DNA from: Arenicella sp. | GTDB lineage: Bacteria; Pseudomonadota; Gammaproteobacteria; Arenicellales; Arenicellaceae | Reading direction: 5' to 3' | NCBI GenBank assembly: GCA_047629535.1 | Contig: JBLHXJ010000001.1 | Span: 41,975 to 65,974, forward strand | DNA: 24,000 bases | In this document: piece by piece, positions 3,324-15,295 of the stretch | Layout of the letters: every line of letters starts with the position of its first letter | How positions within the stretch are numbered: position 1 is the first letter of the stretch | Notes under the pieces: model-generated | What the model saw: the letters and a program-made list of their open reading frames with translations, nothing else | Databases searched by the model: none | Told to the model about the DNA's origin: nothing | Position numbers and translations under genes: made by a program

Positions 3324-4169
3324 ATGAAAACACCGAAAAGACTATTGCCGCTGATTGAAGACGGCTTGGTCGACGAAGTCCTTGGTCAACTGATGAGTGG
3401 CAAAGAAGCCACTGTGTATATGGTGCGCTGTGGCTCCGAGGTTCGTTGTGCCAAAGTGTATAAAGAAGCCGCACAGCGAAGCTTCAAAAAAGCAGTGCAA
3501 TACCAAGAAGGCCGTCGTGTGCGTAATAGCCGCCGCGGCCGGGCAATGGAAAAGGGCTCTAAGTTTGGACGCGATCAACAAGAAGAAATTTGGCAAAGTG
3601 CCGAGGTAGACGCCTTATATAAACTTGCCGCCGCTGGGGTGCGAGTGCCAGAGCCCTACGGTTGCTTCAACGGTGTGCTGTTAATGGAGTTAATTACCGA
3701 TGAAGAAGGCTACGTAGCACCGCGTCTAAACGACGTGGAACTAAGCCCAGAACGAGCGCGGCGTGACCATGCCGTGGTTATGCAAGACGTTATTAAAATG
3801 TTATGCGTTGGCCTAATTCATGGCGACTTATCTGAATTTAATGTGTTGGTTGATGAAGTTGGCCCGGTAATTATCGACCTGCCACAAGCCGTTAACGCGG
3901 CGGGTAATAACAATGCAAAAGCCATGCTCGAACGAGACGTGCGCAACATGACTAACTACTATGGCCAATTCGCACCTGAATTACTCGAGAGCGAACACGC
4001 AAAAGAAATTTGGAAGCTCTATGAAAAAGGCGACCTCAAAGCAGATACTAAGCTCACGGGCATTGTCGAAATAGATACTCGCCCAGCTAATGTCGACTCA
4101 GTAATGCTAGAAATCAAAGCGGCTTTCGAAGAACAGGAAGAGCGTTTGCAGCGATTGAGTGATGATTAG
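3324..4169 (+). CDS. RIO-type serine protein kinase/ATPase
   Basis: 281-aa ORF. It has the RIO ATP-loop motif SGKEATVY, the catalytic loop LIHGDLSEFNVL and the metal-binding IIDLPQAV. An AT-rich 124-bp upstream spacer precedes it. Confidence 0.85.
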   Translation: MKTPKRLLPLIEDGLVDEVLGQLMSGKEATVYMVRCGSEVRCAKVYKEAAQRSFKKAVQYQEGRRVRNSRRGRAMEKGSKFGRDQQEEIWQSAEVDALYKLAAAGVRVPEPYGCFNGVLLMELITDEEGYVAPRLNDVELSPERARRDHAVVMQDVIKMLCVGLIHGDLSEFNVLVDEVGPVIIDLPQAVNAAGNNNAKAMLERDVRNMTNYYGQFAPELLESEHAKEIWKLYEKGDLKADTKLTGIVEIDTRPANVDSVMLEIKAAFEEQEERLQRLSDD

Positions 4170-4183
4170 CTATAAGGCTTTGT

Positions 4184-5698
4184 TTATTTTATTGTTGATC
4201 TCTTTTCATCTGTCACCCCGATTTTGCTTCTAACAATCTCCGACTCTTGCGGGCTGAGCTCGACACTTGCATCGATTATTTTTTCAAAATGTGCTGTATC
4301 CCAAGTGTTTTCGCCACTTAAGCAATAAACATAGAGCTCGGGAAAATCTTCAATTGCCAGTTGGTCTTCGATAAAAAGCGTTTCAATTAATTTTGAATCT
4401 TCGCCTTTGCGTTTACTGTCGTAGGCCATGTTCACTGGCAGAGCGTCTTTACGACATAATACGCTGCCTTCCCATAGTCGAATATTTGAGCAATATACTT
4501 TGTTATTTTCTCGTCGGTGGATTAACCAACGAGGTAAAACTGAGGCGGCCTTATTCTGTTTTAAGGCTGATTCTAATTGCCTTGAAAGACGTGTCGGATG
4601 ATACCAATCATCGTCATCCCACTGGCAAACGAACCGGCCCTTGGCCATTTCGATCGAAAAATTGCGCAAATCACCTAGGCTTTTCTTTGCTTCGATCGGC
4701 ACAACGTGATGCCTTATTTCTTTATTATTAAGGCCCTTCAAGAACTTGTGTGTTGCCGTGTCATCAGATTCGCTAATCACGACCAGCTCTTTATGTGAAT
4801 AGCTTTGTGCCTGAAAACAATCAATAGCGCGCTCTAATAGTGCTACCCGGCCACGGGTCACGCACAAACAGGATATTAGCGGGGCTGGAGAGTTTGACGA
4901 CGACGGCTTGTCGGCCAATCTATATTTTGTTTGCTGGGCGTTAGTGGTGATGTCCTTTTGTGCAATCGAACGATAAAACGATGGTGGCCGTTCGTAATAC
5001 AGGGTTAACAGTGAGAGGTTGCGTATATAGCTCTGGGGATCAATGCCGTTAGGCTCACTTGACTGATGCCACAAATGGTAGGCAATGCCCTTAAGTGTTG
5101 CCATTTTGGTAGCAAAAAAGGCTACCCGCTTGGACATGGCGTCGTCTTCTGCACCCCAGCCTTCAAAGCGTTCATCCATACCGCCCGTCGCGTGGTAAAG
5201 TCTTCGTGTAAGGGCGAACGCTCCTCCGCAGAAGGGGGGGTATTGGCCTATCGACTGTCGGTTTGTCTGTTGCCTTGTTCTATTAATATGCAGCGATTGT
5301 GTCTGCGCTAAAAGCTGTTGTGATTCCTCCTGGCTTAGGTCAACTAAAACGTCATACGGATTGATCGCGTCTACATCGTTGTTCATTTGTTGGCAAATCT
5401 CATCTAACGCAGCTGCGCTAATGAGCATGTCTGAATCGGCGAATACCAGCCGCTCACAGCTTGCATAATTAGCGGCGATGTTCAGCCCCCAGGATTTATT
5501 GAAGCGCCCAGAATTCTCAACAAATACATACTTGATGTTAGCTTGCTGTTGGTTTTTAAATTGAGGGGTAGCGTCTTGCTCGACGAGAATTATCTCTAAG
5601 CTTCGGTCGAGGCTGAGCTGCTGTAAAAGGAAGTGTAAGTTATGTTGCCGACCTTGATCAGATTGGCGATAGGTTATTAGGTAAGAGAAGCGATACAT
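4184..5698 (-). CDS. Two-domain glycosyltransferase: N-terminal beta-1,4-galactosyltransferase-like (GT7/Glyco_transf_7C-like) + C-terminal GT2
   Basis: N-domain (aa 1-~215): ILVEQD, RFNKSWGLNIAANYA, FADSDM (DxD) and FCGGAFALTRRLYHATGGMDERFEGWGAEDDAMSKR, which parallels the beta4GalT FGGVSAL...WGWGGEDDD block. C-domain (aa ~270-504): ISCLCVTRGR, ELVVISESDD, LGDLRNFSIEMAKGRFVCQWDDDDWYHP (classic GT2). No TM segment is evident. Confidence 0.85.
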   Translation of the reverse strand: MYRFSYLITYRQSDQGRQHNLHFLLQQLSLDRSLEIILVEQDATPQFKNQQQANIKYVFVENSGRFNKSWGLNIAANYASCERLVFADSDMLISAAALDEICQQMNNDVDAINPYDVLVDLSQEESQQLLAQTQSLHINRTRQQTNRQSIGQYPPFCGGAFALTRRLYHATGGMDERFEGWGAEDDAMSKRVAFFATKMATLKGIAYHLWHQSSEPNGIDPQSYIRNLSLLTLYYERPPSFYRSIAQKDITTNAQQTKYRLADKPSSSNSPAPLISCLCVTRGRVALLERAIDCFQAQSYSHKELVVISESDDTATHKFLKGLNNKEIRHHVVPIEAKKSLGDLRNFSIEMAKGRFVCQWDDDDWYHPTRLSRQLESALKQNKAASVLPRWLIHRRENNKVYCSNIRLWEGSVLCRKDALPVNMAYDSKRKGEDSKLIETLFIEDQLAIEDFPELYVYCLSGENTWDTAHFEKIIDASVELSPQESEIVRSKIGVTDEKRSTIK

Positions 5699-5855
5699 AT
5701 AAATTCTAATTAACGAGTTGCGTCGGGTTTACTGGCGTAAGACTATGCATAACAATATAACGGATAACCGTGTCCGAGTTCTATTAGAGTAAGATGGTTC
5801 ACAGTTGCGGGCAACCGCGTTCATTTCACTGATAATTTAAATTAAAAAGTACACT

Positions 5856-6512
5856 ATGAAACAAGCGCCATCTCCACAAGTATTGATTGGCACGCCTGCT
5901 TACAATGGCATGCTGCATACAGACTATCTGCATTCGATTCTTGGTTTTGTAAAAAATGACATCCCGCATGCGGTGATGACCATTGGTAATGAGAGTTTGA
6001 TCACTCGGGCCAGGAATACAATTTTGGCCAGTTTCTGGGAGGCCGACACGTTTACCCATCTACTTTTCCTTGATGCTGATGTGTTTCTTGACCATCAGGG
6101 CCTTAGCCAAATGCTTAGCCATAATAAAGATGTTGTTGGCGCGCCAGTTTATCTGAAAGGCAAGAACGCAGACGGCGAACAAACCGCAAATACAGATGCC
6201 AAACTGAATGTTCTGCCGGTGCTTCAATCAGTAACTAGAGTTGGCACCGCAGCACTGCTGCTATCACGTTCGGCGGTTAATTCTTTGGTCGCCCACGCAA
6301 TCAAGCAAGATCGGACCTACAGCATAAATAAGATGCTTCGACATGAAGGGATGGCAACCACCCACTACGATGTGTTCAGAGTGGGTATCTCTAATGACGA
6401 GTATTTATCAGAAGATTTTTGGCTTTGCAAAGAATTGCGAGAGCTGGGTCACGAAATTCACGTCGACACCTCGGTATACACTCGCCATAACGGTATGGTC
6501 TGCTTCGACTAG
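5856..6512 (+). CDS. Small putative GT-A fold glycosyltransferase
   Basis: 218-aa ORF. VLIGTPAYNG opens a Rossmann-like strand. It also has SLITRARNTILASF and HLLFLDADVFL (DxD). I cannot assign a CAZy family by eye. It is divergent from the 4184-5698 gene across a 157-bp spacer. Confidence 0.65.
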   Translation: MKQAPSPQVLIGTPAYNGMLHTDYLHSILGFVKNDIPHAVMTIGNESLITRARNTILASFWEADTFTHLLFLDADVFLDHQGLSQMLSHNKDVVGAPVYLKGKNADGEQTANTDAKLNVLPVLQSVTRVGTAALLLSRSAVNSLVAHAIKQDRTYSINKMLRHEGMATTHYDVFRVGISNDEYLSEDFWLCKELRELGHEIHVDTSVYTRHNGMVCFD

Positions 6513-6634
6513 CGCGGTCTTAATATGAGCGCTAGTCGGTAATCCGTGGACCAGTTTTTATAGCTGTACGCTGGAATAAATTTGCCCTAGGCTGATTCGT
6601 CTAGGGCAACGGCTTCGGCGTAAGAAAAACTGAC

Positions 6635-7486
6635 TTATGCCCAGCTAGACTTCGACAAGCTGAAATTAAACGCAACGTTTGAATTTGCTGGCATAGGCGT
6701 GGTTGGCATAGGCGTTGTTGGCATAGACGTGGTTGGCATAGACGTGGTTGGCATAGACGTAGACGTGGTAGTCGGTACGCCTGTAGTCGTTGGTGCAACA
6801 GTAGTCGTTGGTGCGCCTGTAGTCGTTGGTGCAACAGTAGTCGTTGGTGCCGCAGTGGTGGTTGCCACCGGCGCGCAAACTGGATCAGACGAAGAGACAG
6901 TAAATGCTCCAGTTTCACCTAAGCCACTAATGGAACCCGTAGCCGAAGTTGGCACAGTCGCGCTGTTAAGCGTTGCCGTCACTGTAAAGCCAGAGTGCAA
7001 ACCCACAACGCTTACTGCGGTGCCGTTAACAGAGCCTTTTTGAACATCAACTTCATTATTATTTAGAGTCAATGAAACGGTTGCAACGCCGGCTTCAAGT
7101 GTGAGCAGTACGCAACCGCCATTTAATACTGTAATGGGCGCTTCTTCGGCATATGCCTGACCAATGAAAATATCCAGAATATCGTTAACATCAACGCCGT
7201 CATTTTCAGCCTTGGATATCGATATGCCGCCGCCGCCGCCCATTACTACAACAGCAGCACTGGTTTGTGCATGGCTTGGAAGTATTACCGCGTCAAGTAA
7301 TGGCTTTTTCCATTTATCAGGGACTAAGCTAGTTGAAATAACCGCGCCGCCGCCAATTAAGGTATTTCTTAATACTGTACGTCTAGCATTCTTCTGCTCT
7401 ACACCAACAGCTAGCTCTTGTTGCTCAGCTGATTTAGACGAAGGTGTCGCTTCGCTACTCAATGAATCATTTGTATCTTTAGGCAT
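6635..7486 (-). CDS. Exported protein with twin-arginine-like signal and C-terminal Thr/Pro-rich mucin-like repeat tail
   Basis: The ORF is open to TTG 7549, but the first ATG is at 7486 (MPKDTND...), and using it removes the overlap with the divergent gene. ARRTVLRNTLIGGGAVISTSLV is followed by LPSHA|Q, a possible signal-peptidase site. A central region of about 130 aa is rich in Gly/Val/Thr and carries 2 Cys. The tail is APVATTTAAPTTTVAPTTTGAPTTTVAPTTTGVPTTTSTSMPTTSMPTTSMPTTPMPTTPMP (62 aa, 27 Thr), followed by ANSNVAFNFSLSKSSWA. Confidence 0.75.
   Translation of the reverse strand: MPKDTNDSLSSEATPSSKSAEQQELAVGVEQKNARRTVLRNTLIGGGAVISTSLVPDKWKKPLLDAVILPSHAQTSAAVVVMGGGGGISISKAENDGVDVNDILDIFIGQAYAEEAPITVLNGGCVLLTLEAGVATVSLTLNNNEVDVQKGSVNGTAVSVVGLHSGFTVTATLNSATVPTSATGSISGLGETGAFTVSSSDPVCAPVATTTAAPTTTVAPTTTGAPTTTVAPTTTGVPTTTSTSMPTTSMPTTSMPTTPMPTTPMPANSNVAFNFSLSKSSWA
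6689..6874 (-). repeat. In-frame coding tandem repeats (15-bp x5 and 36-bp x2) encoding the PT-rich tract
   Basis: The 15-bp units are at 6690-6704, 6705-6719, 6720-6734, 6735-6749 and 6750-6764 (ggcata[g/a][g/a]cgt[g/t]gtt; units 3 and 4 are identical). They encode MPTT(S/P). The 36-bp units at 6780-6815 and 6816-6851 match at 35 of 36 positions and encode (APTTTV/APTTTG). Confidence 0.95.
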
Positions 7487-7496
7487 TTTTAATACT

Positions 7497-7524
7497 TTGG
7501 CGGTAGTTAATATGGTCTTATAAT
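7497..7524 (+). promoter_or_regulatory. Candidate sigma70-type promoter for the GT32-FkbM / mega-GT operon
   Basis: TTGGCG (7497-7502), a 16-bp spacer, then a perfect TATAAT (7519-7524), about 95 nt upstream of ATG 7620. This is a pattern match only. Confidence 0.3.
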
Positions 7525-7570
7525 AACCCGAATAATAATTGGCTGCCAAGGGCTATAGGTTAACTTCTAG

Positions 7571-7591
7571 GCTACTCTTTGCTAGAGTAGC
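7571..7591. promoter_or_regulatory. Perfect 8-bp inverted repeat (operator or 5'-UTR hairpin candidate)
   Basis: gctactct (7571-7578), ttgct, agagtagc (7584-7591). It lies in the 133-bp divergent spacer between the PT-protein gene and the GT32-FkbM gene, 29 nt upstream of ATG 7620. Confidence 0.3.
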
Positions 7592-7619
7592 GGGAATATC
7601 CCTCCAGCACCGATTGATT

Positions 7620-9437
7620 ATGATTCCTAAAATTATCCACCAAACTTGGAAAACCGATCAGGTTCCAGAGCAGTGGAAGGCATTTGCCCAGTCATGGAAA
7701 TCGCATCACCCCGATTGGGAGTATCGGCTGTGGAGCAACGCTGATGGCGCTGAGTTTGTCGAACATTTCTATCCTCATTTCGAACAGACATATTGGTCCT
7801 ATCGATACGATATACAGCGCGCTGATGCGATTCGCTACCTAATAATTTATCATTATGGTGGTATCTATGCCGACCTTGATTTTGAATGCCTGCAATCATT
7901 TGAGAGCCTACGTGACAATCACAAGCTGGTTATCGGCTTTGAGCCTAAGGAGCATGCGCAGGCTCAATCATTGCAAGAAGTGTTATGCAATGCGTTATTC
8001 GCGTCAAAGCCTCGGTCAAAATTTTTAAAAGCCGTTATTGATTTTTTAATAGCGGACGACACTCCGACGATTGGACTTGGGGATGTATTGAGAACCTCTG
8101 GCCCAGTGATGTTGCAGAATGTGTATGAGCAATTTAATAAAAGTGACGTAGATGCTCATCCGCCGGTCCGCTTTTACCCGTTTGAAAATAATGCCCCAGA
8201 ATTAACCCAGCTAGCCAAAAATTCGGATGAAAGTGAACGCATAAGGCAAAAACTGATAGGTTTGGGTTGTTTTGCGGTGCACCACTGGGCAAATTCATGG
8301 ACCAAAGATTTGGCCGGTGAACTGATGAATCCGAGCGCCGATTCAGTTGAGGGGTTTGATTTTTATCCGATGTATGATTCACCTGGGATGGATTTATTTA
8401 ACGGTGGTAGAGAGGTCGCAGCACTTGCAGAACGATGCAGAGCTGATTCTCAGGTAGTAGCGTTCAATACCGATGGCTTTGCAAAGCACACTATCGCCTC
8501 AATATCTGATTTGAGCGTAATGTTAAACGCGAATCAAAATGAAGGGATATATATAAAAAGACCCATCGCTAACGCTAAAGAGGTTTTAGAGCAGCACGAG
8601 AATATGCAACTGGTCTATATTGCCGCTGCTGGCCCTCGGCCATTTAGTCTGTTTGTCGATCAAACCAACGATCTAGTAATTGCTCAGTTTATTGAGAGTA
8701 ACCGCATTTGGGAGCCGCTTGAAACCGCCTTAGTCAGCAAGTTAGTATCCCCAGGCGAAAACGTAATCGACATAGGAGCCAACATTGGCTATTTCACGGT
8801 ACTTTTTTCGCAACTAGTGGGCGAACAAGGCAAAGTGCTGGCGTTCGAACCGGAAGCAAAAAATTACTCTTTATTAAAGGCCAATATATTAATTAATCGC
8901 TTAGATAATGTGGTTATTGAAAATCAAGCGCTGTCCAATACTCAGGGAGTCGCTGATCTATACTTATCTAGTTACAATAAAGGTGATCATCGACTTGGCT
9001 ACACCGCCGGCCGAGAGAAGCAACAAATTAGCAGTATTGAGCTTGACCAATACCTGTCAGGCAACGCCCTGCCGATTCATTTTATTAAATCCGATACCCA
9101 AGGTCATGAGCTTAAAGTGCTGCAGGGTATGACCAAGTTAATTGAGCGAAATAGTGCATACTTATGCTGCTTGCTGGAATTCTCTCCAGGGTTATTGATC
9201 ACTGCAGAACCTAGAGGCGTTGAAGATTTTATCGATTTCTTTGACTTATTCGAGACCGAAATATATTTGATTCAGGAGGTGGCTCGGAACGCCGAATTAG
9301 TATTAATGGATAGCGCCGCATTGCGGCAACTGGCGCGCATAATGTTGCAGCACGAAGCGCAAGACCATTCCGTCAATACTTTAATTTTTTTTAGCACTAA
9401 CGCTCGAATCAAGTATTTCGCTAAAATGGGTTGGTGA
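7620..9437 (+). CDS. Fusion protein: GT32-type glycosyltransferase (Gly_transf_sug, DXD) - unassigned ~70-aa module - FkbM-family methyltransferase
   Basis: The ORF-track start at 7539 is a TTG. ATG 7620 gives MIPKIIHQTWKT, the canonical GT32 N-terminus. RADAIRYLIIYHYGGIYADLDFECL carries the DXD. The FkbM region (nt ~8616-9398) has VIDIGANIGYFTV, LAFEPEAKNYSLLKANI and IHFIKSDTQGHELKVLQGM. Its stop overlaps the next gene. Confidence 0.85.
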   Translation: MIPKIIHQTWKTDQVPEQWKAFAQSWKSHHPDWEYRLWSNADGAEFVEHFYPHFEQTYWSYRYDIQRADAIRYLIIYHYGGIYADLDFECLQSFESLRDNHKLVIGFEPKEHAQAQSLQEVLCNALFASKPRSKFLKAVIDFLIADDTPTIGLGDVLRTSGPVMLQNVYEQFNKSDVDAHPPVRFYPFENNAPELTQLAKNSDESERIRQKLIGLGCFAVHHWANSWTKDLAGELMNPSADSVEGFDFYPMYDSPGMDLFNGGREVAALAERCRADSQVVAFNTDGFAKHTIASISDLSVMLNANQNEGIYIKRPIANAKEVLEQHENMQLVYIAAAGPRPFSLFVDQTNDLVIAQFIESNRIWEPLETALVSKLVSPGENVIDIGANIGYFTVLFSQLVGEQGKVLAFEPEAKNYSLLKANILINRLDNVVIENQALSNTQGVADLYLSSYNKGDHRLGYTAGREKQQISSIELDQYLSGNALPIHFIKSDTQGHELKVLQGMTKLIERNSAYLCCLLEFSPGLLITAEPRGVEDFIDFFDLFETEIYLIQEVARNAELVLMDSAALRQLARIMLQHEAQDHSVNTLIFFSTNARIKYFAKMGW

Positions 9438-12400
9438 GTATCAACGGTATAAAATACTATTCCATGCTTGAGTCATCCGGCTATGGACTGTCTGCGATTA
9501 GCTATTTGAATGCGTTGCTTGACCTCGAGTGCCCAATACATTGGATTCCACTGGTCTTGGGCGAGCGAGGTTACCAACCATGGTATCAATCGACATCGGC
9601 CGAGCAGCAAGTTCGCCAATTGCTGATCGAGTGTCTGACTGACGACAGTCAAATAGACAGACTGATGGCGTGTCTAGAGCCGATTAACAACTATCAATGC
9701 ATATTCATGCATACCGTGCCGGAGTATTGGCCTCATCTTAAAGAGCCCAATAAATATCAAATCGGCTATAGCGTGTGGGAGACTAGTTGCCTACCTAAGC
9801 ATTTTCCTGAGCTCATCAATCAGCTTGACCGAGTGCTAGTACCCAGCACATTTAATCGACCGATATACGAGCGTTCGGGGGTTGAGATTCCGATAGACGT
9901 GGTGCCGCATATTCTAAATAAGCCCGCGCCTGCGGCTAAGGCGACCGTCGATACTATGCGTAGCTTGATTGAGGTTGCGCCAGAAAACTACCTCTTCTAT
10001 TGCATCAATGAATGGACCGCTCGCAAGGCGCTATGGGTTTTGGTTGACGCCTATCTAAGCAGCTTTAGTGCTGATGACTCGGTGTCTTTAGTACTAAAAA
10101 CATCGGCTCGAGGCCCGCGATCGGAAACCGATGCAGACCAGTACGACACACAACTATTGGTGGCACAAATAGCTGCTGGCTATACTGCACCTGCGCATAT
10201 TAAAGTGATTAATCATAAAATCACTAACCCTGAGATCACCGCATTACACCAACTTGGCGATTGCTTTGTCTCTACCAGTCGTAGCGAAGGCTGGGGCTTG
10301 GGTATGTTTGAAGCTGCGGGAATGGGTAACCCGGTGATTGCTACCGGCTGGGGCGGGCATCTCGATTTTCTTACAGAGCAGTCGAGCTATCTGTCATCCT
10401 ATCAATTGACTCAAGTGGTGGATACTCAAGCTGAATCGTCCTACAGTAGCGAACAACAGTGGGCTCAAGTTGATCAAACAAGTATCTCTAAGCATTTAAA
10501 AACGGTGTTCGCCAATCCTCAATTAGCGCAGCAAAACGCTCAAGATTTGGCTCTAGAGCTAAATGAAAAGTATAATTCAGCACAGCTTGGTATACAGCTC
10601 TATAAAGCAATTATGGCAACTAACATCCCCAAGATTTTTCATTTTATATTCGGTTTGAAAGAACAAACTGAGCCGTTTCATCTGGCCTACTATCTTTGTT
10701 TAAAATCCTGCCTCGAGGTTAACAAGCCGAGCGCGCTACATTTTTACTATCATTACCAACCTTATGGTGAATACTGGGAGTTGATAAAACCTCACCTGAC
10801 GCTAATCGAAGTAGAGTTGGAATCTTTTGTAAAACACAATAACGCCTACCAAGATCACCAAGAAGGTCAGTTTATCAAGGCCGCTAAACTCGATTATGCG
10901 CATCAAGCGGATTTTATCCGCTTAAAAAAATTGATAGAATACGGTGGTGTTTATGCTGACATGGACACCCTATTTGTAAACCCAATACCGGATGATCTGT
11001 ATCAGCATCCGTTTGTGATAGGCCGTGAACAGAGTGTTATCGACCCCGTAAGCAAGAAAAAAAATCCGTCATTGTGCAACGCGCTGCTGATGTCCGAACC
11101 CAATTCAGAGTTCGCGCGCCAATGGCTAAAGGCTAGTTATCAATCGTTTGACGGAACCTGGAGTTCGCACTCGTGCCAGTTAGCGGCGACACTTGCAAGC
11201 GAGTTGCCCGATACGGTGCACATTGCGCCGCAACGTTTCTTCTTCAAGCACATGTGGACAAAGCCGGGTATTAGCTCGTTATTTGAAGAGCTTGATGATG
11301 ACTTCGAGCAAGTCTATAGCATGCATATGTGGAACCATCTGTGGTGGGACCAATCGAGAGTAGACTTTTCGAGTTTTCATCAAGGCTTGATCACCGAACA
11401 AAATATTATGACGGTAGATACCACTTATAATGTTATCGCCAGACAATTTTTACCAACAGCAAGTAAGGCAACAACTAGCCCAATTAACAAAGAGCCCTCT
11501 GAAAAATTGAAAAATTCATCCTCATCAATCTTGATTCCAGTAATAGAAGTTAGTTGGGAACTTTCTCAAGAGCAAGGTTCCAGCCGCTTTTCCAATACTC
11601 AAACGGGCCATTCCTTCGCCACTAACGAAACTACAAATTTAATTCTTCAACAGTGCGATGGAATTAAAAATGTTGACGCTATCATTGATTCGCTGAGTGA
11701 GCGCTTTGGTGATGATTTCGACAGTATAGGGCATGATGTTAAAACTACTTTGCGCGAACTAGCTTTGAGTGGCGCGATTCGATTTAAACAAATCACACCG
11801 GCTCTACCAGTTGTTCAGCCCACGCCGCCCGAGGCACCCTCAAAGCAGTACAAGTTGTGTATTGGCATGGCCACCTACGATGACTATGACGGTGTCTACT
11901 TTTCGGTGCAGGCGATGCGAATGTATCACCCAGAAATATTGGAGCATGTAGAGTTTTTAGTGCTCGACAACAACCCCACAGGCGTTTGCGCCGACGCGCT
12001 AAAAAACCTTGGTGATTGGATCCCAAACTATCGTTATATTGAAGGCGATAATTTCCAAGGAACCTGGTCTCGATTTTCCTTGATTAACCAAACTAACGCT
12101 CCGTATATTTTGTGTATGGATTCGCACGTGATGGTTTTACCCGGAGCGATTAAGCAACTGTTGGATTATATCGACATTCACCCCGACACACCCGACATGC
12201 TGCAAGGGCCACTAGTGGCCGATGATTTGTTTTCCTTGTCATCGCATTTTACGCCCGGCTGGGGTAGTGGCATGTATGGCAAATGGGCAACAGATTCAAG
12301 AGCGGAAGATCTCGACAACCCTGGGTTTGATATCCCAATGCAAGGGCTTGGTTTGTTTGCCTTTCGCAAAGATAGCTGGCCGCAAGTAAACTCACGCTTT

Positions 12401-13309
12401 AAAGGGTTTGGCGGCGAAGAGGGCTATGTGCATGAGAAAGTTCGGCGTGCCGGTGGGCGAACATTATGTCTACCATTTTTACGCTGGGTACACCGCTTTA
12501 ACCGACCGATGGGCACGCGCTATGCGCTCAGTTGGCATGATCGCATTCGCAACTATATGGTCGCGCATGACGAACTGGATGTTGATAATAGCGAGATGAT
12601 TGAACACTTCAATTCGTTTATAGGCGAGGCCGAAACCGCAACAATAGTTGCCGATGTTGAAGCTGAAATTAACAATCCATTCTACTTTTTTGATGCTATT
12701 TACTGTATCAACTTAGATCGACAAGAAGAACGATGGAAGACCGCACAGGCACAATTCGATAAGCTTGGCATTACCCATCGAGTTCAGCGTTTTTCCGCTA
12801 TTGAAACACCCGAAAATCACCATATAGGGTGTGCCTTGTCACACCGAGCAATTATTCAAATGGCATCGGTCAATAAGCACAAAAATGTATTGGTGTTAGA
12901 AGATGATGTGATCTTCGATGCGGCCACACTGACTGATCTTGCAAATAGCCTGGATGAGGCAAAAGCCGAAAGCTGGGATGTATTATATTTAGGTGGACAT
13001 TGTTGGGACAAGCGATATCCACTTGTAAGTGGGCGTGAACATTTAAGAGAACTGGTCAGTGGCGAAGTTGGGCCAACCACAACCCATGCGATTGTCTATG
13101 GCGATTCCAGTTATTCGCAACTGCTTAATGATCTTCCCGAGACTATCGCGCAGATGACAAGCGCCATTGATCAAGGGTGGTTAGCGATTGATCAGTATTT
13201 GGCCGTTGAGACAACGCTAAGAAAGCTGATAACCGAACCTAGAGTGGCAAGTCAGCCACCGCTTCTTATCCAAGAAGAAGATAGCTTTACACCGATACTT
13301 TCGGCATAG
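9431..13309 (+). CDS. 1292-aa multi-domain glycosyltransferase: GT4 - GT32 - PqqD-like - DxH GT-A (GT2/GT27-like) - GT25
   Basis: The start is TTG 9431 or GTG 9434, overlapping the upstream TGA (9435-9437). ATG 9464 would delete the first beta-strand IKYYS. GT4 (aa 1-~392): EX7E in SRSEGWGLGMFEAAGMGNPVIATGWGG (nt 10286-10312). GT32 (aa ~397-672): IPKIFHFIFG and ADFIRLKKLIEYGGVYADMDTLF. PqqD-like: aa ~704-786. GT-A (aa ~806-1045): FLVLDNNP, CMDSHV (nt 12119-12127), GFGGEEGY and WVHRF. GT25 (aa ~1085-1280): AIYCINLDRQEERW, GCALSHRA and VLVLEDDVIF. No TM segment is evident. Confidence 0.85.
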   Translation: MVSINGIKYYSMLESSGYGLSAISYLNALLDLECPIHWIPLVLGERGYQPWYQSTSAEQQVRQLLIECLTDDSQIDRLMACLEPINNYQCIFMHTVPEYWPHLKEPNKYQIGYSVWETSCLPKHFPELINQLDRVLVPSTFNRPIYERSGVEIPIDVVPHILNKPAPAAKATVDTMRSLIEVAPENYLFYCINEWTARKALWVLVDAYLSSFSADDSVSLVLKTSARGPRSETDADQYDTQLLVAQIAAGYTAPAHIKVINHKITNPEITALHQLGDCFVSTSRSEGWGLGMFEAAGMGNPVIATGWGGHLDFLTEQSSYLSSYQLTQVVDTQAESSYSSEQQWAQVDQTSISKHLKTVFANPQLAQQNAQDLALELNEKYNSAQLGIQLYKAIMATNIPKIFHFIFGLKEQTEPFHLAYYLCLKSCLEVNKPSALHFYYHYQPYGEYWELIKPHLTLIEVELESFVKHNNAYQDHQEGQFIKAAKLDYAHQADFIRLKKLIEYGGVYADMDTLFVNPIPDDLYQHPFVIGREQSVIDPVSKKKNPSLCNALLMSEPNSEFARQWLKASYQSFDGTWSSHSCQLAATLASELPDTVHIAPQRFFFKHMWTKPGISSLFEELDDDFEQVYSMHMWNHLWWDQSRVDFSSFHQGLITEQNIMTVDTTYNVIARQFLPTASKATTSPINKEPSEKLKNSSSSILIPVIEVSWELSQEQGSSRFSNTQTGHSFATNETTNLILQQCDGIKNVDAIIDSLSERFGDDFDSIGHDVKTTLRELALSGAIRFKQITPALPVVQPTPPEAPSKQYKLCIGMATYDDYDGVYFSVQAMRMYHPEILEHVEFLVLDNNPTGVCADALKNLGDWIPNYRYIEGDNFQGTWSRFSLINQTNAPYILCMDSHVMVLPGAIKQLLDYIDIHPDTPDMLQGPLVADDLFSLSSHFTPGWGSGMYGKWATDSRAEDLDNPGFDIPMQGLGLFAFRKDSWPQVNSRFKGFGGEEGYVHEKVRRAGGRTLCLPFLRWVHRFNRPMGTRYALSWHDRIRNYMVAHDELDVDNSEMIEHFNSFIGEAETATIVADVEAEINNPFYFFDAIYCINLDRQEERWKTAQAQFDKLGITHRVQRFSAIETPENHHIGCALSHRAIIQMASVNKHKNVLVLEDDVIFDAATLTDLANSLDEAKAESWDVLYLGGHCWDKRYPLVSGREHLRELVSGEVGPTTTHAIVYGDSSYSQLLNDLPETIAQMTSAIDQGWLAIDQYLAVETTLRKLITEPRVASQPPLLIQEEDSFTPILSA
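11540..11788 (+). other. PqqD-like (RiPP-recognition-element-like) domain embedded in the mega-glycosyltransferase
   Basis: EVSWELSQEQGSSRFSNTQTGHSFATNETTNLILQQCDGIKNVDAIIDSLSERFGDDFDSIGHDVKTTLRELALSGAIRF follows the PqqD-family pattern (x-LNetaaxIwxlxDGxxtvxeIvxxLxxxy...DVxxfLxxLxxxGli). It is flanked by Ser/Thr/Pro-rich linkers. Confidence 0.6.
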
Positions 13310-13404
13310 GCCATGCACACTAAATGTTGATTAGAATGCACGCATCTTGGCAAGTAATGTTTTAGTTTATCGTTTAGTTAAATAATCAGATTAAGGTGAC
13401 AATT

Positions 13405-13845
13405 ATGAAGCTTTCTACAGTTAGCCGAAGCTTAATGTTTGCCGGCCTTATTCCTTTTATTGCCGGCACAATAGCAATCGCCCTAAAGCTTGATAGCTGG
13501 TGGATTATCAACGATATTGCGATTAGTTTTGCGTTCTACGCGCTTGCTATCGCCAGCTTTATGTCAGGTACTCATTGGGCCGTGGCGCAGTTGCTCGAGA
13601 ATAGAACTGACTTGCTATTTCACAGTAACTTAATGGTTTTATTGCCGTGGATCGCATTACTTACTTTAGGTGATGGATCTACGTTCTATTTTTTCTTGGC
13701 CTTTGTTTTTTTTAAGCAATACCTGCTCGATCGAAAACTTACAAGTCAGGGGGTTTTTGGTCAACCGTATCTACGTGATCGACGAATAGTCACGACCACC
13801 GTTTGCCTGTCGATGCTGTTTGTTGCGGGCATTAATTTTTACTGA
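13405..13845 (+). CDS. Small 4-TM inner-membrane protein (DUF3429-like)
   Basis: ATG 13405 lies 8 nt after AAGG (13393-13396). The ORF track used GTG 13396. There are four hydrophobic helices and the motif SFMSGTHWA. The family call is from memory and tentative. Confidence 0.6.
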   Translation: MKLSTVSRSLMFAGLIPFIAGTIAIALKLDSWWIINDIAISFAFYALAIASFMSGTHWAVAQLLENRTDLLFHSNLMVLLPWIALLTLGDGSTFYFFLAFVFFKQYLLDRKLTSQGVFGQPYLRDRRIVTTTVCLSMLFVAGINFY

Positions 13846-14710: not shown

Positions 14711-15295
14711 CTATCGGCTCTGTTGTTGTTCTAGGTAATCTAAAATGGCTATGTCATCGACATACAATTCGGCGATTACGGCATAACCGTTTTTTATTCT
14801 AACGTCAGCGTAAAACTCCACATTTTGGCCTGCGACTCGAGTCCACAACAATGACTCTATCTTTGGTGCTTTCGATTCCTCGGCATAATAGCGGTCAAAG
14901 GGTAGGGTGATGTTGTATTTTTCGTTATAGCTGTAGCTACTTTTTATTCTTACATAATTTTGATGTTTTGGTGGTTCTTTCTGAATATCTCGAACCCGCG
15001 CGATACTATCAGAATCTCTATCGATGATTGCATAGGCCGCTGTTTTTCTGGGTAGCTCAGTTATTATCACTGGGTTTTCTAAATCCTTGATCGCGCCACT
15101 TGAGATAGGAAAGTCGAGAACAACATAGCGGCCTTTAAAAGGGTCTGCGGGGTCTCGTGGCTCGACTTTGAACAGATAACGCTCACCAGTCTGTAAAATA
15201 TCTTCATAGCGGCTTGCCATGCTGGTCGGTATAAACAGCTGCGCGGCGATGGTTAATAGTGCAACCGACAAAATCAATAATCTATTTCGACTCAT
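14711..15295 (-). CDS. GDYXXLXY-domain protein (membrane-anchored/secreted)
   Basis: N-terminal anchor MSRNRLLILSVALLTIAAQLF. The motifs FKVEPRDPADPFKGRYVVLDF and FDRYYAEE match the GDYXXLXY family pattern. The ATG overlaps the upstream gene's stop by 4 nt (15292-15295). Confidence 0.7.
   Translation of the reverse strand: MSRNRLLILSVALLTIAAQLFIPTSMASRYEDILQTGERYLFKVEPRDPADPFKGRYVVLDFPISSGAIKDLENPVIITELPRKTAAYAIIDRDSDSIARVRDIQKEPPKHQNYVRIKSSYSYNEKYNITLPFDRYYAEESKAPKIESLLWTRVAGQNVEFYADVRIKNGYAVIAELYVDDIAILDYLEQQQSR

What the first reader, a model, noticed from the sequence alone, without database searches (positions are those of the whole stretch)
4184..13309. Compact island of ~8 glycosyltransferase domains wrapped around a mucin-like exported protein: candidate dedicated protein O-glycosylation system
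Seen in sequence: four GT-bearing polypeptides (504, 218, ~605 and 1292 aa) surround, on both sides, a single gene whose product ends in a 62-aa tract that is 44% Thr with regularly spaced Pro. None of the four has an obvious TM helix. Together they carry about eight GT catalytic domains and one FkbM methyltransferase. The substrate-like gene shares a 133-bp divergent control region with the GT32-FkbM/mega-GT operon. Absent from the window: Wzx/Wzy/Wzz, ABC or OPX exporters, an undecaprenyl-phosphate priming transferase and nucleotide-sugar synthesis genes. Established knowledge: bacteria do glycosylate specific proteins in the cytoplasm with dedicated GTs encoded next to the substrate. Examples are HMW1C/HMW1, GtfA/GtfB with serine-rich-repeat adhesins, and Aah/TibC heptosyltransferases with autotransporters. 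Pro/Thr repeats are the classical acceptor for mucin-type O-glycosylation. Inference: this locus builds a multi-sugar, possibly methylated, O-glycan directly on the PT tail. I do not know of this domain combination (GT7-like, GT2, GT32 x2, GT4, DxH GT-A, GT25, FkbM, PqqD-like) as a described system.
Basis: partly seen in the sequence, partly recalled or inferred. Interest (0 to 1): 0.88.

Follow-up and report, generated by a model that had tools for sequence, protein, structure and literature searches.

The report
Leader-guided mucin-type protein glycosylation island
A five-gene island in a cold-marine Arenicella-like bacterium most likely attaches a complex sugar chain to the threonine-rich tail of its own exported protein. 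Its core enzyme and the protein's conserved leader recur together in many bacterial phyla as an undescribed, mucin-like glycosylation system.

Summary
Four soluble proteins carrying eight glycosyltransferase (GT) domains, an FkbM methyltransferase and a PqqD domain flank one gene. That gene's product has a 62-aa tract that is 43.5% Thr and 19% Pro. The window holds no polysaccharide export or priming genes.

- The cassette, with a Thr-rich gene in the same position, recurs in about 10 Arenicella-type contigs with different flanks.
- The C-terminal PqqD-GT2-GT25 module of the 1292-aa protein is the core of a rare family (87 of 36,145 genera, 14 phyla).
- The PqqD part models as a RiPP recognition element (RRE).
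- The GT2 part's closest solved folds are eukaryotic polypeptide GalNAc-transferases.
- The GT25 part's best PDB sequence match is collagen galactosyltransferase.
- The substrate's N-terminal ~50 aa is a conserved twin-arginine leader (RR…W-x-K-P…LP-x-H-A).
- Leader-bearing, Thr-rich genes sit beside family members in at least 6 phyla. In four other genomes they are the only leader genes present.

Proposed mechanism: leader/RRE-guided cytoplasmic O-glycosylation of Thr, elaboration by the extra GTs and the methyltransferase, then Tat-type export. No biochemistry exists. RRE-GT fusions have been noted in the literature but not characterised.

The parts
4184..5698 (-). 504-aa soluble protein with two GT-A domains. 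Predicted glycan-elongating transferase.
   Evidence: Pfam Glyco_tranf_2_2 / Glyco_transf_7C (residues 24-206) and Glycos_transf_2 (residues 281-404). Best PDB sequence matches are K4CP chondroitin synthase and beta4GalT1/7. Present in all Arenicella-type cassettes and absent from other family loci.
5856..6512 (+). 218-aa protein, probably a small GT-A glycosyltransferase.
   Evidence: Marginal Pfam Glyco_transf_21 (23.0 bits, cut-off 21.7) and Anp1 below cut-off. No significant PDB sequence match. Conserved in every Arenicella-type cassette.
6635..7486 (-). 283-aa substrate candidate: leader, beta-rich two-Cys domain, Thr/Pro-rich repeats and a conserved C-terminal tail.
   Evidence: No Pfam or NCBIfam family. 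Orthologue alignment A4. Present in every complete cassette.
7259..7423 (-). Conserved leader (residues 22-76): RR, an uncharged G/A/S/T/I/V stretch, LP-x-x-W-x-K-P, then LP-[AS]-H-A followed by QTS.
   Evidence: Alignment A2: W, P, P, H and A are invariant and RR is at least 90% conserved across 30 sequences from several phyla. 4,569 representative clusters match at E<=1e-3, and in the 150 best listed the match lies near the N-terminus. Found next to family GTs, with 0 at random control places.
6680..6865 (-). Thr/Pro-rich tract (residues 208-269). Predicted O-glycosylation acceptor.
   Evidence: 43.5% Thr, 19% Pro. Encoded by 15-bp and 18/36-bp tandem repeats. Length and sequence vary between orthologues while the composition is kept. 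Contigs of two metagenome runs lack one 15-bp unit.
6638..6679 (-). Conserved C-terminal tail (N-x-N-x-x-F-N-F-S-L-S-K-S-x-W-[AS]). Role unknown.
   Evidence: Conserved in Arenicella-type orthologues only.
7487..7619 (.). 133-bp divergent intergenic region between the substrate gene and the GT32-FkbM / 1292-aa operon.
   Evidence: Sequence read. Two of the four best sigma70-like matches (10 of 12) in 4000-13700 lie here, one on each strand, but the total number of matches is not above the shuffled controls.
7620..9437 (+). 605-aa GT32 glycosyltransferase fused to an FkbM-family methyltransferase.
   Evidence: Pfam Gly_transf_sug 79 bits and Methyltransf_21 62 bits. TIGR01444 fkbM_fam 101.7 bits. 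The N-terminus resembles Och1 alpha-1,6-mannosyltransferase. The gene is missing from cassettes L007-L009 and is split in L015.
9431..11500 (+). N-terminal half of the 1292-aa protein: a GT4 (GT-B) domain followed by a second GT32 domain.
   Evidence: Pfam GT4-conflict, Glycos_transf_1 and Gly_transf_sug/Caps_synth. This half is a separate 805-aa gene in L015. Found only in Arenicella-type loci.
11531..11791 (+). PqqD-like RiPP recognition element (residues ~701-787 of the 1292-aa protein).
   Evidence: Pfam PqqD 33.3 bits, cut-off 23.4. AF2 model residues 2-86 superpose on lasso-peptide B1 bound to its leader, 6jx3_B: Z 12.1, rmsd 2.1 A, 85 of 85 residues.
11840..12670 (+). GT-A domain with an invariant D-S-H motif, the family-defining core. 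Predicted polypeptide Thr O-glycosyltransferase (initiating enzyme).
   Evidence: AF2 model of the RRE+GT-A segment: mean pLDDT 82.8. The Foldseek top 50 PDB hits are all GT27 polypeptide GalNAc-transferases, best E 1.4e-13. VIA-align: GalNAc-T1 Z 20.6 and TgGalNAc-T3 Z 20.1, against 16.8 or less for other GT-A folds. About 50% identical across phyla.
12671..13309 (+). GT25 domain. Predicted second-sugar transferase.
   Evidence: Pfam Glyco_transf_25 40.2 bits, cut-off 24. E-D-D is invariant. Best PDB sequence matches are procollagen galactosyltransferase 1 (E 3e-8) and mimivirus R655. Fused to the GT-A core in 77 of the 80 loci (at 99 bits or more) and weak or absent in three.

Best explanation
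The island is a dedicated protein O-glycosylation system for the gene it surrounds. It works in the cytoplasm and uses nucleotide sugars.

Proposed steps:
1. The substrate is made with a ~75-aa N-terminal extension. Its last ~40 residues form a conserved twin-arginine leader: RR, an uncharged stretch, LPxxWxKP, then LPxHA.
2. The PqqD-type RRE inside the 1292-aa enzyme docks on this leader and holds the unfolded Thr/Pro-rich tail near the catalytic domains.
3. The adjacent GT-A domain carries a DSH motif and has a fold like polypeptide GalNAc-transferases. It puts the first sugar on Thr hydroxyls.
4. The fused GT25 domain adds a second sugar.
5. In the Arenicella-type version the glycan is extended by six further GT domains and capped by the FkbM methyltransferase. 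These are the GT4 and GT32 domains of the same protein, the GT32 of the 605-aa protein, the two domains of the 504-aa protein and the 218-aa protein.
6. The finished glycoprotein leaves through the Tat pathway. The leader is cut after the A-H-A site by signal peptidase, giving a mucin-like periplasmic or surface glycoprotein.

Shown: the anatomy, the domain families, the folds, the synteny, and the cross-phylum co-occurrence of leader, Thr-rich tract and enzyme.

Inferred: every biochemical step, the sugar identities, RRE-leader binding, Tat export and the cleavage site.
For: 1. Cassette conservation. The substrate gene keeps its position between the GT genes in every complete Arenicella-type cassette: L005, L007-L009, L014, L015/L016, L017, L019-L021 and L023. 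The flanks differ: RIO kinase/DUF3429 here, MATCAP/SnoaL in L005, and glutaminase/SNF in L007.

2. The Thr tract is kept in composition, not in sequence (PTTT repeats or poly-T, 15-60 aa). It is also polymorphic in repeat number in nature.

3. The leader HMM finds genes beside the PqqD/HprK-GT2-GT25 enzyme in Gammaproteobacteria, Alphaproteobacteria, Thermodesulfobacteriota, a 'Deltaproteobacteria' MAG labelled Myxococcota, Acidobacteriota and Planctomycetota. In the shortest examples only 24-60 residues follow the leader, and these are mostly Thr or Thr/Ser/Pro. Examples are L054, L072, L033 and L077.

4. Census.
- GT core as query: present in 87 of 36,145 genera. The leader lies within 5 kb in 15 of 87, against 0 at random places. 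By likeness band: 0 of 27 and 15 of 54; the other two bands had under 5 carriers tried.
- Leader as query: the GT lies within 5 kb in 15 of 99, against 0 at random. By band: 0 of 6, 6 of 72 and 9 of 21; the lowest band had under 5 tried.

5. In four other genomes (2.4-10.4 Mb) the only leader-bearing genes in the whole genome are those next to the GT.

6. 26 of 35 distinct GT-adjacent leader ORFs have a 20-aa window of at least 40% Thr, against 1.2% of control ORFs. Family loci without the canonical leader carry other RR-signal plus poly-Thr ORFs. At least 41 of 80 loci have one type or the other.

7. Folds and families.
- RRE: Z 12.1 to lasso-peptide B1 bound to its leader.
- GT-A: closest to GT27 polypeptide GalNAc-transferases, with D-S-H invariant.
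- GT25: the best PDB sequence match is a protein-glycosylating enzyme, COLGALT1.

8. Relatives carry stand-alone PqqD, HprK-related kinase A-like and NTP_transf_5 genes or domains. In lasso-peptide clusters, HPr kinase homologues phosphorylate a Ser hydroxyl of the precursor and a cluster nucleotidyltransferase adds hexose to that phosphate (PMC8498205).

9. The GT proteins have no TM helix, and the window has no lipid-carrier or export genes.

10. Complex prediction of RRE+GT-A with the leader gave weak support. The score was 0.39 and the best of 3 controls 0.01.
- Calibration: the mark was reached by 58 of 80 solved complexes and 2 of 110 mismatched pairs. At 0.60 or under it was reached by only 7 of those 80 and by both mismatches.
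- The runs agree in at least 37% of contacts, and the partner's pLDDT is at least 39.

11. TatC is present in the genome.
Against: - There are no biochemical, mass-spectrometric or expression data for any member.
- The complex prediction is only a weak pass, and no interface was returned.
- The Pfam TAT_signal model does not reach its cut-off. It gives no hit on the window protein and 13-19.9 bits against a cut-off of 22.7 in relatives.
- The leader is not exclusive to GT loci. In the census most best-matching leader genes are not within 5 kb of the GT.
- In the five Anaerolineae genomes examined, four of six contigs carry an HprK-like ORF near the leader gene and none carries this GT. One of those leader proteins is a beta-propeller.
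- The window's own genome has two more leader proteins in unrelated contexts. These could be extra substrates, or a sign that the leader is mainly an export signal.
- About half of the family loci show no recognisable substrate gene nearby.
- Fold similarity to GT27 (15-19% identity) shows neither acceptor nor donor specificity.
Confidence: 0.65

Rival explanations
1. The GTs do glycosylate the Thr-rich protein, but the N-terminal region is only a Tat or Sec export signal with an unusual c-region. On this view the GT-A domain recognises the Thr/Pro tract itself, as eukaryotic GalNAc-transferases do. The PqqD domain would have another role, such as scaffold, regulator or binder of a different peptide.
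For: The RR motif, uncharged stretch and A-x-A site fit a signal peptide. Relatives give sub-threshold TAT_signal hits. The leader also occurs on proteins that are not next to GTs, including a beta-propeller. The complex prediction is only weak.
Against: The invariant W-x-K-P…P-x-H-A block lies outside the RR motif and h-region that the 21-position Pfam TAT_signal model matched in relatives. The view that general Tat signals lack such a block rests on my own knowledge. In four genomes the leader occurs only beside the GT. Where the GT is absent, four of six Anaerolineae contigs still carry an HprK-like ORF near the leader gene. The enzyme carries, or is adjacent to, an RRE, a domain known for binding leader peptides.
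Confidence: 0.2
2. The system is a RiPP pathway in the strict sense. The end product would be a small secreted glycopeptide released from the precursor, such as the glycosylated Thr-rich segment, acting as a natural product rather than as a structural glycoprotein.
For: In relatives only 24-60 residues follow the leader. The RRE, HprK-like and nucleotidyltransferase genes are typical RiPP accessories. Several loci have tandem precursor copies (L026, L033, L042, L051).
Against: The window's protein and its orthologues carry a conserved ~130-aa folded beta domain with two invariant Cys and a conserved C-terminal tail. No dedicated protease or transporter lies in the island.
Confidence: 0.1
3. 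The island makes a polysaccharide or glycolipid (EPS, LPS core or similar), and the Thr-rich gene is an unrelated passenger.
For: GT2, GT4, GT25 and GT32 families are best known from polysaccharide and LPS synthesis. The 504-aa protein resembles chondroitin and heparosan synthases.
Against: The window has no priming transferase, flippase, polymerase, exporter or sugar-nucleotide genes. No GT has a membrane segment. The Thr-rich gene travels with the GTs through changes of genomic context and gene order. The core enzyme pairs with Thr-rich genes across phyla, with 0 at random places.
Confidence: 0.05

Closest known systems
Eukaryotic mucin-type O-glycosylation: GT27 polypeptide GalNAc-transferases followed by a core-extending galactosyltransferase
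   Same: The acceptor is a Thr/Pro-rich tandem-repeat tract. The initiating domain is a GT-A fold with a D-x-H metal motif, and its nearest solved structures are GalNAc-T1/T2/T3/T4/T10/T12. A second transferase is coupled directly to it.
   Different: Sequence identity is only 15-19%, and Pfam places the domain in GT2. There is no ricin-type lectin domain. The enzyme is cytoplasmic and soluble rather than Golgi-lumenal type II. The predicted substrate handle is an RRE plus an N-terminal leader. The second enzyme is GT25, not GT31. Donor sugars are unknown.
RRE-dependent RiPP tailoring: lasso-peptide B1/PqqD, HPr-kinase-like and nucleotidyltransferase tailoring enzymes, and glycocin glycosyltransferases such as SunS
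   Same: A PqqD-fold RRE, Z 12.1 to B1 bound to its leader. A conserved N-terminal leader on the substrate. Relatives have PqqD, HprK-related-A-like and NTP_transf_5 partners. Hydroxyl-directed modification of Ser/Thr has precedent in paeninodin and pseudomycoidin (PMC8498205).
   Different: There is no lasso cyclase, protease or dedicated transporter. The substrate here is a 283-aa protein with a folded domain. The leader looks like a Tat signal. The modification is predicted to be dense multi-site O-glycosylation. SunS scores lower as a structural neighbour (Z 12.3). RRE-GT fusions have only been listed as uncharacterised (PMC7470986 and PMC12710340).
Dedicated bacterial cytoplasmic protein glycosylation with an adjacent substrate: GtfA/GtfB with serine-rich-repeat adhesins, HMW1C/HMW1, and Aah/TibC with autotransporters
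   Same: Soluble nucleotide-sugar GTs are encoded next to a repeat-rich exported substrate, and glycosylation precedes export.
   Different: The enzyme families differ: there is no GT41 or heptosyltransferase, and similarity to GtfA is negligible (TIGR02918 14 bits against a cut-off of 575). The island has no accessory SecA2/Y2 and no two-partner or autotransporter module. Export is predicted to use Tat, and recognition to use a leader and RRE.
Collagen hydroxylysine galactosyltransferase (COLGALT1, GT25) and mimivirus R655
   Same: These are the best PDB sequence matches of the C-terminal GT25 domain (E 3e-8 and 3e-4). COLGALT1 is a protein-modifying GT25 enzyme.
   Different: The match covers only ~80 residues around the E-D-D motif. 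The acceptor here is presumably a sugar on Thr, not hydroxylysine.
Tat proofreading chaperones (TorD, DmsD, NapD) that bind Tat signal peptides until the cargo is mature
   Same: Conceptually similar: a cytoplasmic domain binds a twin-arginine signal while the cargo is being completed before export. This is inference from my own knowledge of these systems.
   Different: There is no sequence or fold relationship. Here the maturation would be glycosylation, not cofactor insertion. Nothing of this was tested.

Membership tests
RRE (PqqD-like RiPP recognition element) | Winged-helix-like fold of three beta strands plus three helices, and a match to the PqqD family model | tested here: met
   Pfam PqqD 33.3 bits, cut-off 23.4. 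AF2 residues 2-86 against 6jx3_B (lasso B1 with its leader): Z 12.1, rmsd 2.1 A, 85 of 85 aligned.
RRE-dependent RiPP pathway | A precursor with a conserved leader that co-occurs with, and is bound by, the RRE | tested here: inconclusive
   Co-occurrence is met. For binding, the complex prediction gave only weak support: 0.39 against a best control of 0.01, a range in which passes are more often wrong than right unless the guess was likely beforehand.
RRE-dependent RiPP pathway | A short core peptide released by a leader protease as a small product | tested here: not met
   The window's predicted mature part is ~207 aa with a folded domain, and the island has no protease gene. Some relatives do have only 24-60 residues after the leader.
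GT27 polypeptide GalNAc-transferase | GT-A catalytic fold closest to GalNAc-Ts, with a D-x-H metal-binding motif | tested here: met
   The Foldseek top 50 are all GT27, best E 1.4e-13. VIA-align Z 20.6 and 20.1, against 16.8 or less for the next families. D198-S-H200 is invariant in A3.
GT27 polypeptide GalNAc-transferase | Sequence-level family membership, a C-terminal ricin-type lectin domain, and type II membrane topology | tested here: not met
   No GalNAc-T chain reached E<=1 in the profile search of PDB sequences. Pfam assigns PF00535 (GT2) only. The domain is followed by GT25, not by a lectin domain. No TM segment is present.
GT27 polypeptide GalNAc-transferase | Transfer of GalNAc from UDP-GalNAc to Ser/Thr of a polypeptide | not testable with these tools
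   Needs an enzyme assay.
GT25 | A match to the family model above its cut-off, and a conserved acidic (DxD-type) motif | tested here: met
   PF01755 40.2 bits, cut-off 24. E458-D459-D460 is invariant in A1. COLGALT1 is the best PDB sequence match.
Tat (twin-arginine) substrates | An RR motif, a weakly hydrophobic uncharged h-region, an A-x-A cleavage site, and Tat machinery in the genome | tested here: inconclusive
   RR is at least 90% conserved, is followed by ~16 uncharged residues, and [AS]-H-A is invariant. TatC is present. However, the Pfam TAT_signal model gives no hit on the window protein and 13-19.9 bits against a cut-off of 22.7 in relatives.
Polysaccharide (Wzx/Wzy, ABC or synthase-dependent) biosynthesis locus | A polyprenyl-phosphate priming transferase, a flippase or ABC transporter, and polymerase, co-polymerase or OPX genes next to the GTs | tested here: not met
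   None were found among the window ORFs that were scanned, nor in the annotated cassettes of relatives.
Serine-rich-repeat adhesin / accessory Sec glycosylation (GtfA/GtfB) | A GtfA/GtfB pair, SecA2/SecY2/Asp genes, and an SRR substrate with an LPXTG anchor | tested here: not met
   TIGR02918 GtfA scores 14.2 bits against a cut-off of 574.6. No SecA2/Y2 is present in the window.
HPr-rel-A-type system (TIGR04352 HprK-related kinase A plus a PqqD-family chaperone plus a nucleotidyltransferase) | An HprK-related kinase A, a PqqD protein and an NTP_transf_5 gene together | tested here: not met
   The window has only the fused PqqD domain. Relatives L012 and L072 have HprK_rel_A-like domains (94-104 bits, below the 200-bit cut-off) and NTP_transf_5, and L012 also has a PqqD gene.

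The most novel reading that the evidence does not exclude
This would be a widespread but rare bacterial pathway, present in at least 14 phyla, in which a twin-arginine leader serves two purposes. It would be the docking site for an RRE (or HprK-like) domain, and it would also be the Tat export signal. Thr-rich proteins and poly-Thr stretches of 24-60 residues would thus be densely O-glycosylated in the cytoplasm by a distant structural relative of the eukaryotic mucin-initiating GalNAc-transferases plus a GT25 partner, held until complete, and then exported. That would make it a prokaryotic counterpart of mucin or antifreeze-glycoprotein-type glycosylation, and the first case of Tat export of a glycosylated cargo.
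Probability: 0.35. Interest if true: 0.9.

Novelty: new variant of a known kind. Interest (0 to 1): 0.8.

Why it matters
If confirmed, the finding would matter in four ways.
- It would define a new family of bacterial protein and peptide O-glycosylation systems with a recognisable substrate signature: a leader followed by a Thr-rich tract.
- It would give function to the uncharacterised RRE-glycosyltransferase fusions already noticed by RiPP genome mining, and to more than 1,800 clusters of leader-bearing proteins.
- It would provide soluble bacterial enzymes that resemble mucin-type initiating transferases and come with a portable targeting leader. That is attractive for glycoengineering of mucin-like or antifreeze-like glycopeptides.
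- It would raise a testable question about whether the Tat pathway can carry heavily glycosylated cargo.

Two cultured carriers make experiments feasible: Oricola indica JL-62 and Desulforhopalus singaporensis DSM 12130.

Tried and rejected
- The substrate protein has no family in Pfam or NCBIfam.
- The ESM Atlas gave only scores of 0.84 or lower, which are not informative.
- The AF2 model of the whole substrate was poor: mean pLDDT 51, with only a small beta domain at residues 122-197 modelled confidently. I did not run a fold search on it.
- No tRNA genes and no Rfam families were found in the window.
- GC content shows no island signature.
- The promoter and terminator scan is not above shuffled controls overall.
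- Expression: no RNA holder listed.
- Literature searches for RRE/PqqD with GT25, with threonine-rich substrates, with GalNAc-T-like bacterial enzymes, or for Tat export of glycosylated cargo found no description of this system. They found only two mentions of uncharacterised RRE-GT fusions.
- The 218-aa protein has no significant PDB sequence match; the best is E 0.26.
- I considered and rejected a capsule, O-antigen or EPS locus (no export or priming genes; see rivals), an accessory-Sec SRR-adhesin system, and an HMW1C-type N-glycosylation system (families absent).
- I considered whether the leader is a sorting signal shared by many proteins of a genome. This is rejected for four genomes, where it is unique to the GT locus. 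It remains open for Arenicella, which has three copies, and for Anaerolineae.
- The careful maximum-likelihood tree did not finish in the time allowed, so only the quick tree was used.

Full report
**1. What is in the window**

The window is contig C1:41975-65974 of a 2.68-Mb metagenome-assembled genome that is 73% complete. Its closest relatives are labelled Arenicella sp. (Gammaproteobacteria). Near-identical DNA occurs in sea-ice, brine and marine-sediment metagenomes.

Five genes lie between a RIO-type kinase gene (3324-4169) and a DUF3429 gene (13396-13845):

| Coordinates | Product | Content |
|---|---|---|
| 4184-5698 (-) | 504 aa | two GT-A domains |
| 5856-6512 (+) | 218 aa | marginal GT-A signal |
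| 6635-7486 (-) | 283 aa | no known family (substrate candidate) |
| 7620-9437 (+) | 605 aa | GT32 fused to FkbM methyltransferase |
| 9431-13309 (+) | 1292 aa | GT4, GT32, PqqD, GT2, GT25 |

- No GT protein has a membrane-helix-like segment.
- Residues 208-269 of the 283-aa protein are 43.5% Thr and 19% Pro. They are encoded by 15-bp and 18/36-bp tandem repeats.
- The divergent spacer is 133 bp.
- Nothing in the 24 kb resembles a priming transferase, flippase, polymerase, exporter or sugar-nucleotide enzyme.
- One correction: a conserved 14-aa tail follows the Thr-rich tract.

**2. The cassette travels as a unit with its Thr-rich gene**

Orthologues of the 1292-aa protein (67-78% identity) were located on contigs from other assemblies. 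Each complete locus has the 504-aa and 218-aa genes, a gene in the position of the 283-aa one, and the large GT. The flanks differ:
- L005: MATCAP and SnoaL/uronate genes.
- L007: glutaminase and an SNF transporter.
- L014: transposases.

The GT32-FkbM gene is missing in L007-L009. In the most divergent locus (L015) the large protein is split into GT4-GT32, PqqD-GT2-GT25, FkbM and an extra PqqD-GT25 gene, and the Thr-rich gene is duplicated.

Alignment of nine orthologues (A4) shows four regions:
- a conserved N-terminal region;
- a conserved beta-rich domain with two invariant Cys;
- a Thr-rich tract whose length and sequence vary (PTTT repeats or pure poly-T) while its position and composition are kept;
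- the conserved tail.

Contigs from two independent metagenome runs lack one 15-bp repeat unit. This is the pattern expected of a tract selected for composition, as in mucin domains.

**3. A conserved leader links substrate and enzyme across phyla**

The last ~490 residues of the large protein (GT2-GT25, usually preceded by PqqD) are about 50% identical to hundreds of proteins from unrelated phyla. In one species-representative genome set, 442 stretches encode a relative.

Scanning 80 such loci for Thr-rich ORFs exposed an uncalled ORF just upstream of the enzyme in a Vicinamibacterales genome. It shares the motif …LP-x-x-W-x-[KR]-P…LP-A-H-A-Q-T with the window's protein.

A profile of this ~50-aa region (A2) has RR nearly invariant and W, P, P, H and A invariant. 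It finds genes beside the enzyme in Gammaproteobacteria, Alphaproteobacteria, Thermodesulfobacteriota, a 'Deltaproteobacteria' MAG labelled Myxococcota, Acidobacteriota and Planctomycetota. Carriers include the isolate Oricola indica JL-62.

After the H-A point these proteins are Thr-rich. In the shortest examples only 24-60 residues follow, mostly Thr or Thr/Ser/Pro (L054, L072, L033, L077). Others have a small domain followed by a Thr-rich tail.

Quantitative checks:
- **Thr enrichment:** 26 of 35 distinct GT-adjacent leader ORFs have a 20-aa window of at least 40% Thr, against 1.2% of control ORFs from the same loci.
- **Census, GT core as query:** the core occurs in 87 of 36,145 genera across 14 phyla. 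The leader lies within 5 kb in 15 of the 87, against 0 at random places. By likeness band the counts are 0 of 27 and 15 of 54; the other two bands had under 5 carriers tried.
- **Census, leader as query:** the GT lies within 5 kb in 15 of 99, against 0 at random. By band the counts are 0 of 6, 6 of 72 and 9 of 21; the lowest band had under 5 tried.
- **Whole genomes:** in four genomes of 2.4-10.4 Mb, the only leader-bearing genes are those beside the GT.
- **Other leaders:** loci lacking this leader, mostly Acidobacteriota and Actinomycetota, often carry other RR-signal plus poly-Thr ORFs, sometimes in tandem triplets. At least 41 of 80 loci have one type or the other.
- **Tree:** on a quick tree of the enzyme module the canonical leader is clustered, needing 12 changes against 25 in shuffles.
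- **Family size:** the leader family has 4,569 representative clusters at E<=1e-3. In the 150 best listed, the match lies near the N-terminus.

**4. What the enzymes look like**

An AF2 model of residues 700-1080 has mean pLDDT 82.8.
- **RRE.** Its first 86 residues superpose on the lasso-peptide B1 RRE solved with its leader: Z 12.1, rmsd 2.1 A.
- **GT-A core.** The top 50 Foldseek PDB hits are all polypeptide GalNAc-transferases, with a best E of 1.4e-13. In an independent all-against-representatives alignment, GalNAc-T1 (Z 20.6) and Toxoplasma GalNAc-T3 (Z 20.1) stand 3-4 Z units above K4CP and the generic GT2 folds. The family has an invariant D-S-H motif. D-x-H is the metal-binding motif of GT27 enzymes; that point is from my own knowledge.
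- **GT25.** It keeps an invariant E-D-D motif. Its best PDB sequence matches are procollagen galactosyltransferase 1 and mimivirus R655.
- **Extra domains.** The 504-aa, 218-aa, GT32, FkbM and GT4 parts occur only in Arenicella-type loci. The 504-aa protein resembles K4CP and beta4Gal-transferases. The GT32 domain resembles Och1.
- **Accessory genes in other lineages.** There the enzyme has an N-terminal HprK-related-kinase-A-like domain instead of, or besides, PqqD, and its neighbours include NTP_transf_5 and, in some loci, stand-alone PqqD. In lasso-peptide pathways, HPr kinase homologues phosphorylate a Ser hydroxyl of the precursor, and a cluster nucleotidyltransferase adds hexose to that phosphate (PMC8498205).

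**5. Proposed mechanism**

The island most likely glycosylates its own Thr-rich protein in the cytoplasm:
1. The RRE binds the leader.
2. The GalNAc-T-like domain starts chains on Thr.
3. GT25 adds the second sugar.
4. The six additional GT domains and FkbM build and methylate a longer glycan.
5. The protein is exported and the leader is removed at A-H-A.

The twin-arginine motif, the ~16 uncharged residues after it and the A-x-A site fit a Tat signal. TatC is present in the genome. The Pfam TAT_signal model stays below its cut-off, so Tat export is an inference.

RRE-leader binding has only weak computational support. The complex score is 0.39 against a best control of 0.01. The mark was reached by 58 of 80 solved complexes and 2 of 110 mismatched pairs, but at 0.60 or under by only 7 of those 80 and by both mismatches. 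The runs agree in at least 37% of contacts, and the partner's pLDDT is at least 39.

Sugar identities are unknown.

**6. Caveats and rivals**

The leader is not confined to GT loci:
- In the five Anaerolineae genomes examined, four of six contigs carry an HprK-like ORF near the leader gene and none carries this GT. One leader protein there is a beta-propeller.
- The window's genome has two more leader proteins in unrelated contexts.

So the leader may primarily be an export signal that several modifying enzymes exploit. The main rival is therefore 'glycosylation yes, leader guidance no'.

A strict RiPP reading, with a small released glycopeptide, fits the minimal relatives better than this 283-aa protein. 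A polysaccharide locus is disfavoured by every comparative result.

About half of the family loci show no nearby substrate candidate.

**7. Novelty**

PGAP names an orthologue only 'PqqD family peptide modification chaperone'. RRE-glycosyltransferase fusions were listed as unexplored in the RRE-Finder paper and in a 2025 follow-up. I found no paper that describes the leader, the Thr-rich substrates, the GalNAc-T-like fold or the GT2-GT25 pairing.

The system combines two known kinds: dedicated cytoplasmic protein glycosylation and RRE-guided peptide modification. It does so with a new enzyme family and a new substrate signature. I therefore rate it a new variant of a known kind, with a substantial chance of being more than that.

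Noticed in passing
G000:C26:9685-9840 (L002 925-1671, minus strand) and G000:C94:3283-3429 (L003 1483-3117, plus strand): Two more proteins in the same genome carry the same leader: a 248-aa Cys-rich two-repeat protein and a 544-aa protein. Neither has a GT next to it; their neighbours are a GNAT gene, and GMC-oxidoreductase and gluconate-2-DH subunit 3 genes. They may be extra substrates of the single GT2-GT25 enzyme in this genome, or a sign that the leader is mainly an export signal.
   Followed up: partly
window 6689-6760: Contigs from two independent metagenome runs (X3, X4) lack exactly one 15-bp repeat unit at 6713/6717. Assemblies also tend to break inside the repeats. The Thr-rich tract therefore varies in copy number in natural populations.
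   Followed up: partly
L015 7853-7855 (minus strand): In the divergent Arenicella MAG the second tandem copy of the substrate gene has an in-frame TGA inside the leader, at the position where the first copy has Leu (…TSV*PDRW…). It could be a pseudogene, a sequencing error or a read-through site.
   Followed up: partly
L112 8559-10887; L113 2201-4853; L114 6747-8400; L116 144-3257: On four of six contigs examined from five Anaerolineae genomes, the leader-bearing gene lies near an ORF that matches the HprK-related N-terminal domain of the 800-aa enzyme type, with no GT2-GT25. One such protein is a 7-bladed beta-propeller and one has a PT-rich linker. This suggests a sister system with a different modification, perhaps phosphorylation.
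   Followed up: partly
L017 and L020 (genome contigs): Contigs whose enzyme module is 77% and 67% identical to the window's, and which carry the same cassette, are filed under Polaribacter sp. and Cryomorphaceae (Bacteroidota) MAGs. L020 is nearly identical to a Gammaproteobacteria contig (L021). This points to mis-binning rather than transfer.
   Followed up: no
window 21-3199: A di-haem cytochrome c peroxidase/MauG-like gene (21-1067) overlaps by 4 bp the start of a DAHL-GAF-adenylate/guanylate cyclase gene (1064-3199). This looks like a peroxide or redox-sensing cyclic-nucleotide signalling pair.
   Followed up: no
window 17045-19603: An 852-aa Na+/H+ exchanger is fused to a C-terminal cyclic-nucleotide-binding domain, in the same window as the cyclase above.
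   Followed up: no
window 3324-4169: A bacterial RIO1-family kinase gene lies directly upstream of the island. It is not conserved next to the cassette in other genomes.
   Followed up: no
window 14711-16569: A DUF2157 membrane protein gene and a GDYXXLXY protein gene form an overlapping pair on the minus strand. Function unknown.
   Followed up: no
L042 6345-7969: An Acidobacteriaceae locus has three tandem, near-identical precursor genes. Each has a different RR-type leader followed by a ~20-residue run that is almost entirely Thr, about 2 kb upstream of the GT2-GT25 gene.
   Followed up: partly
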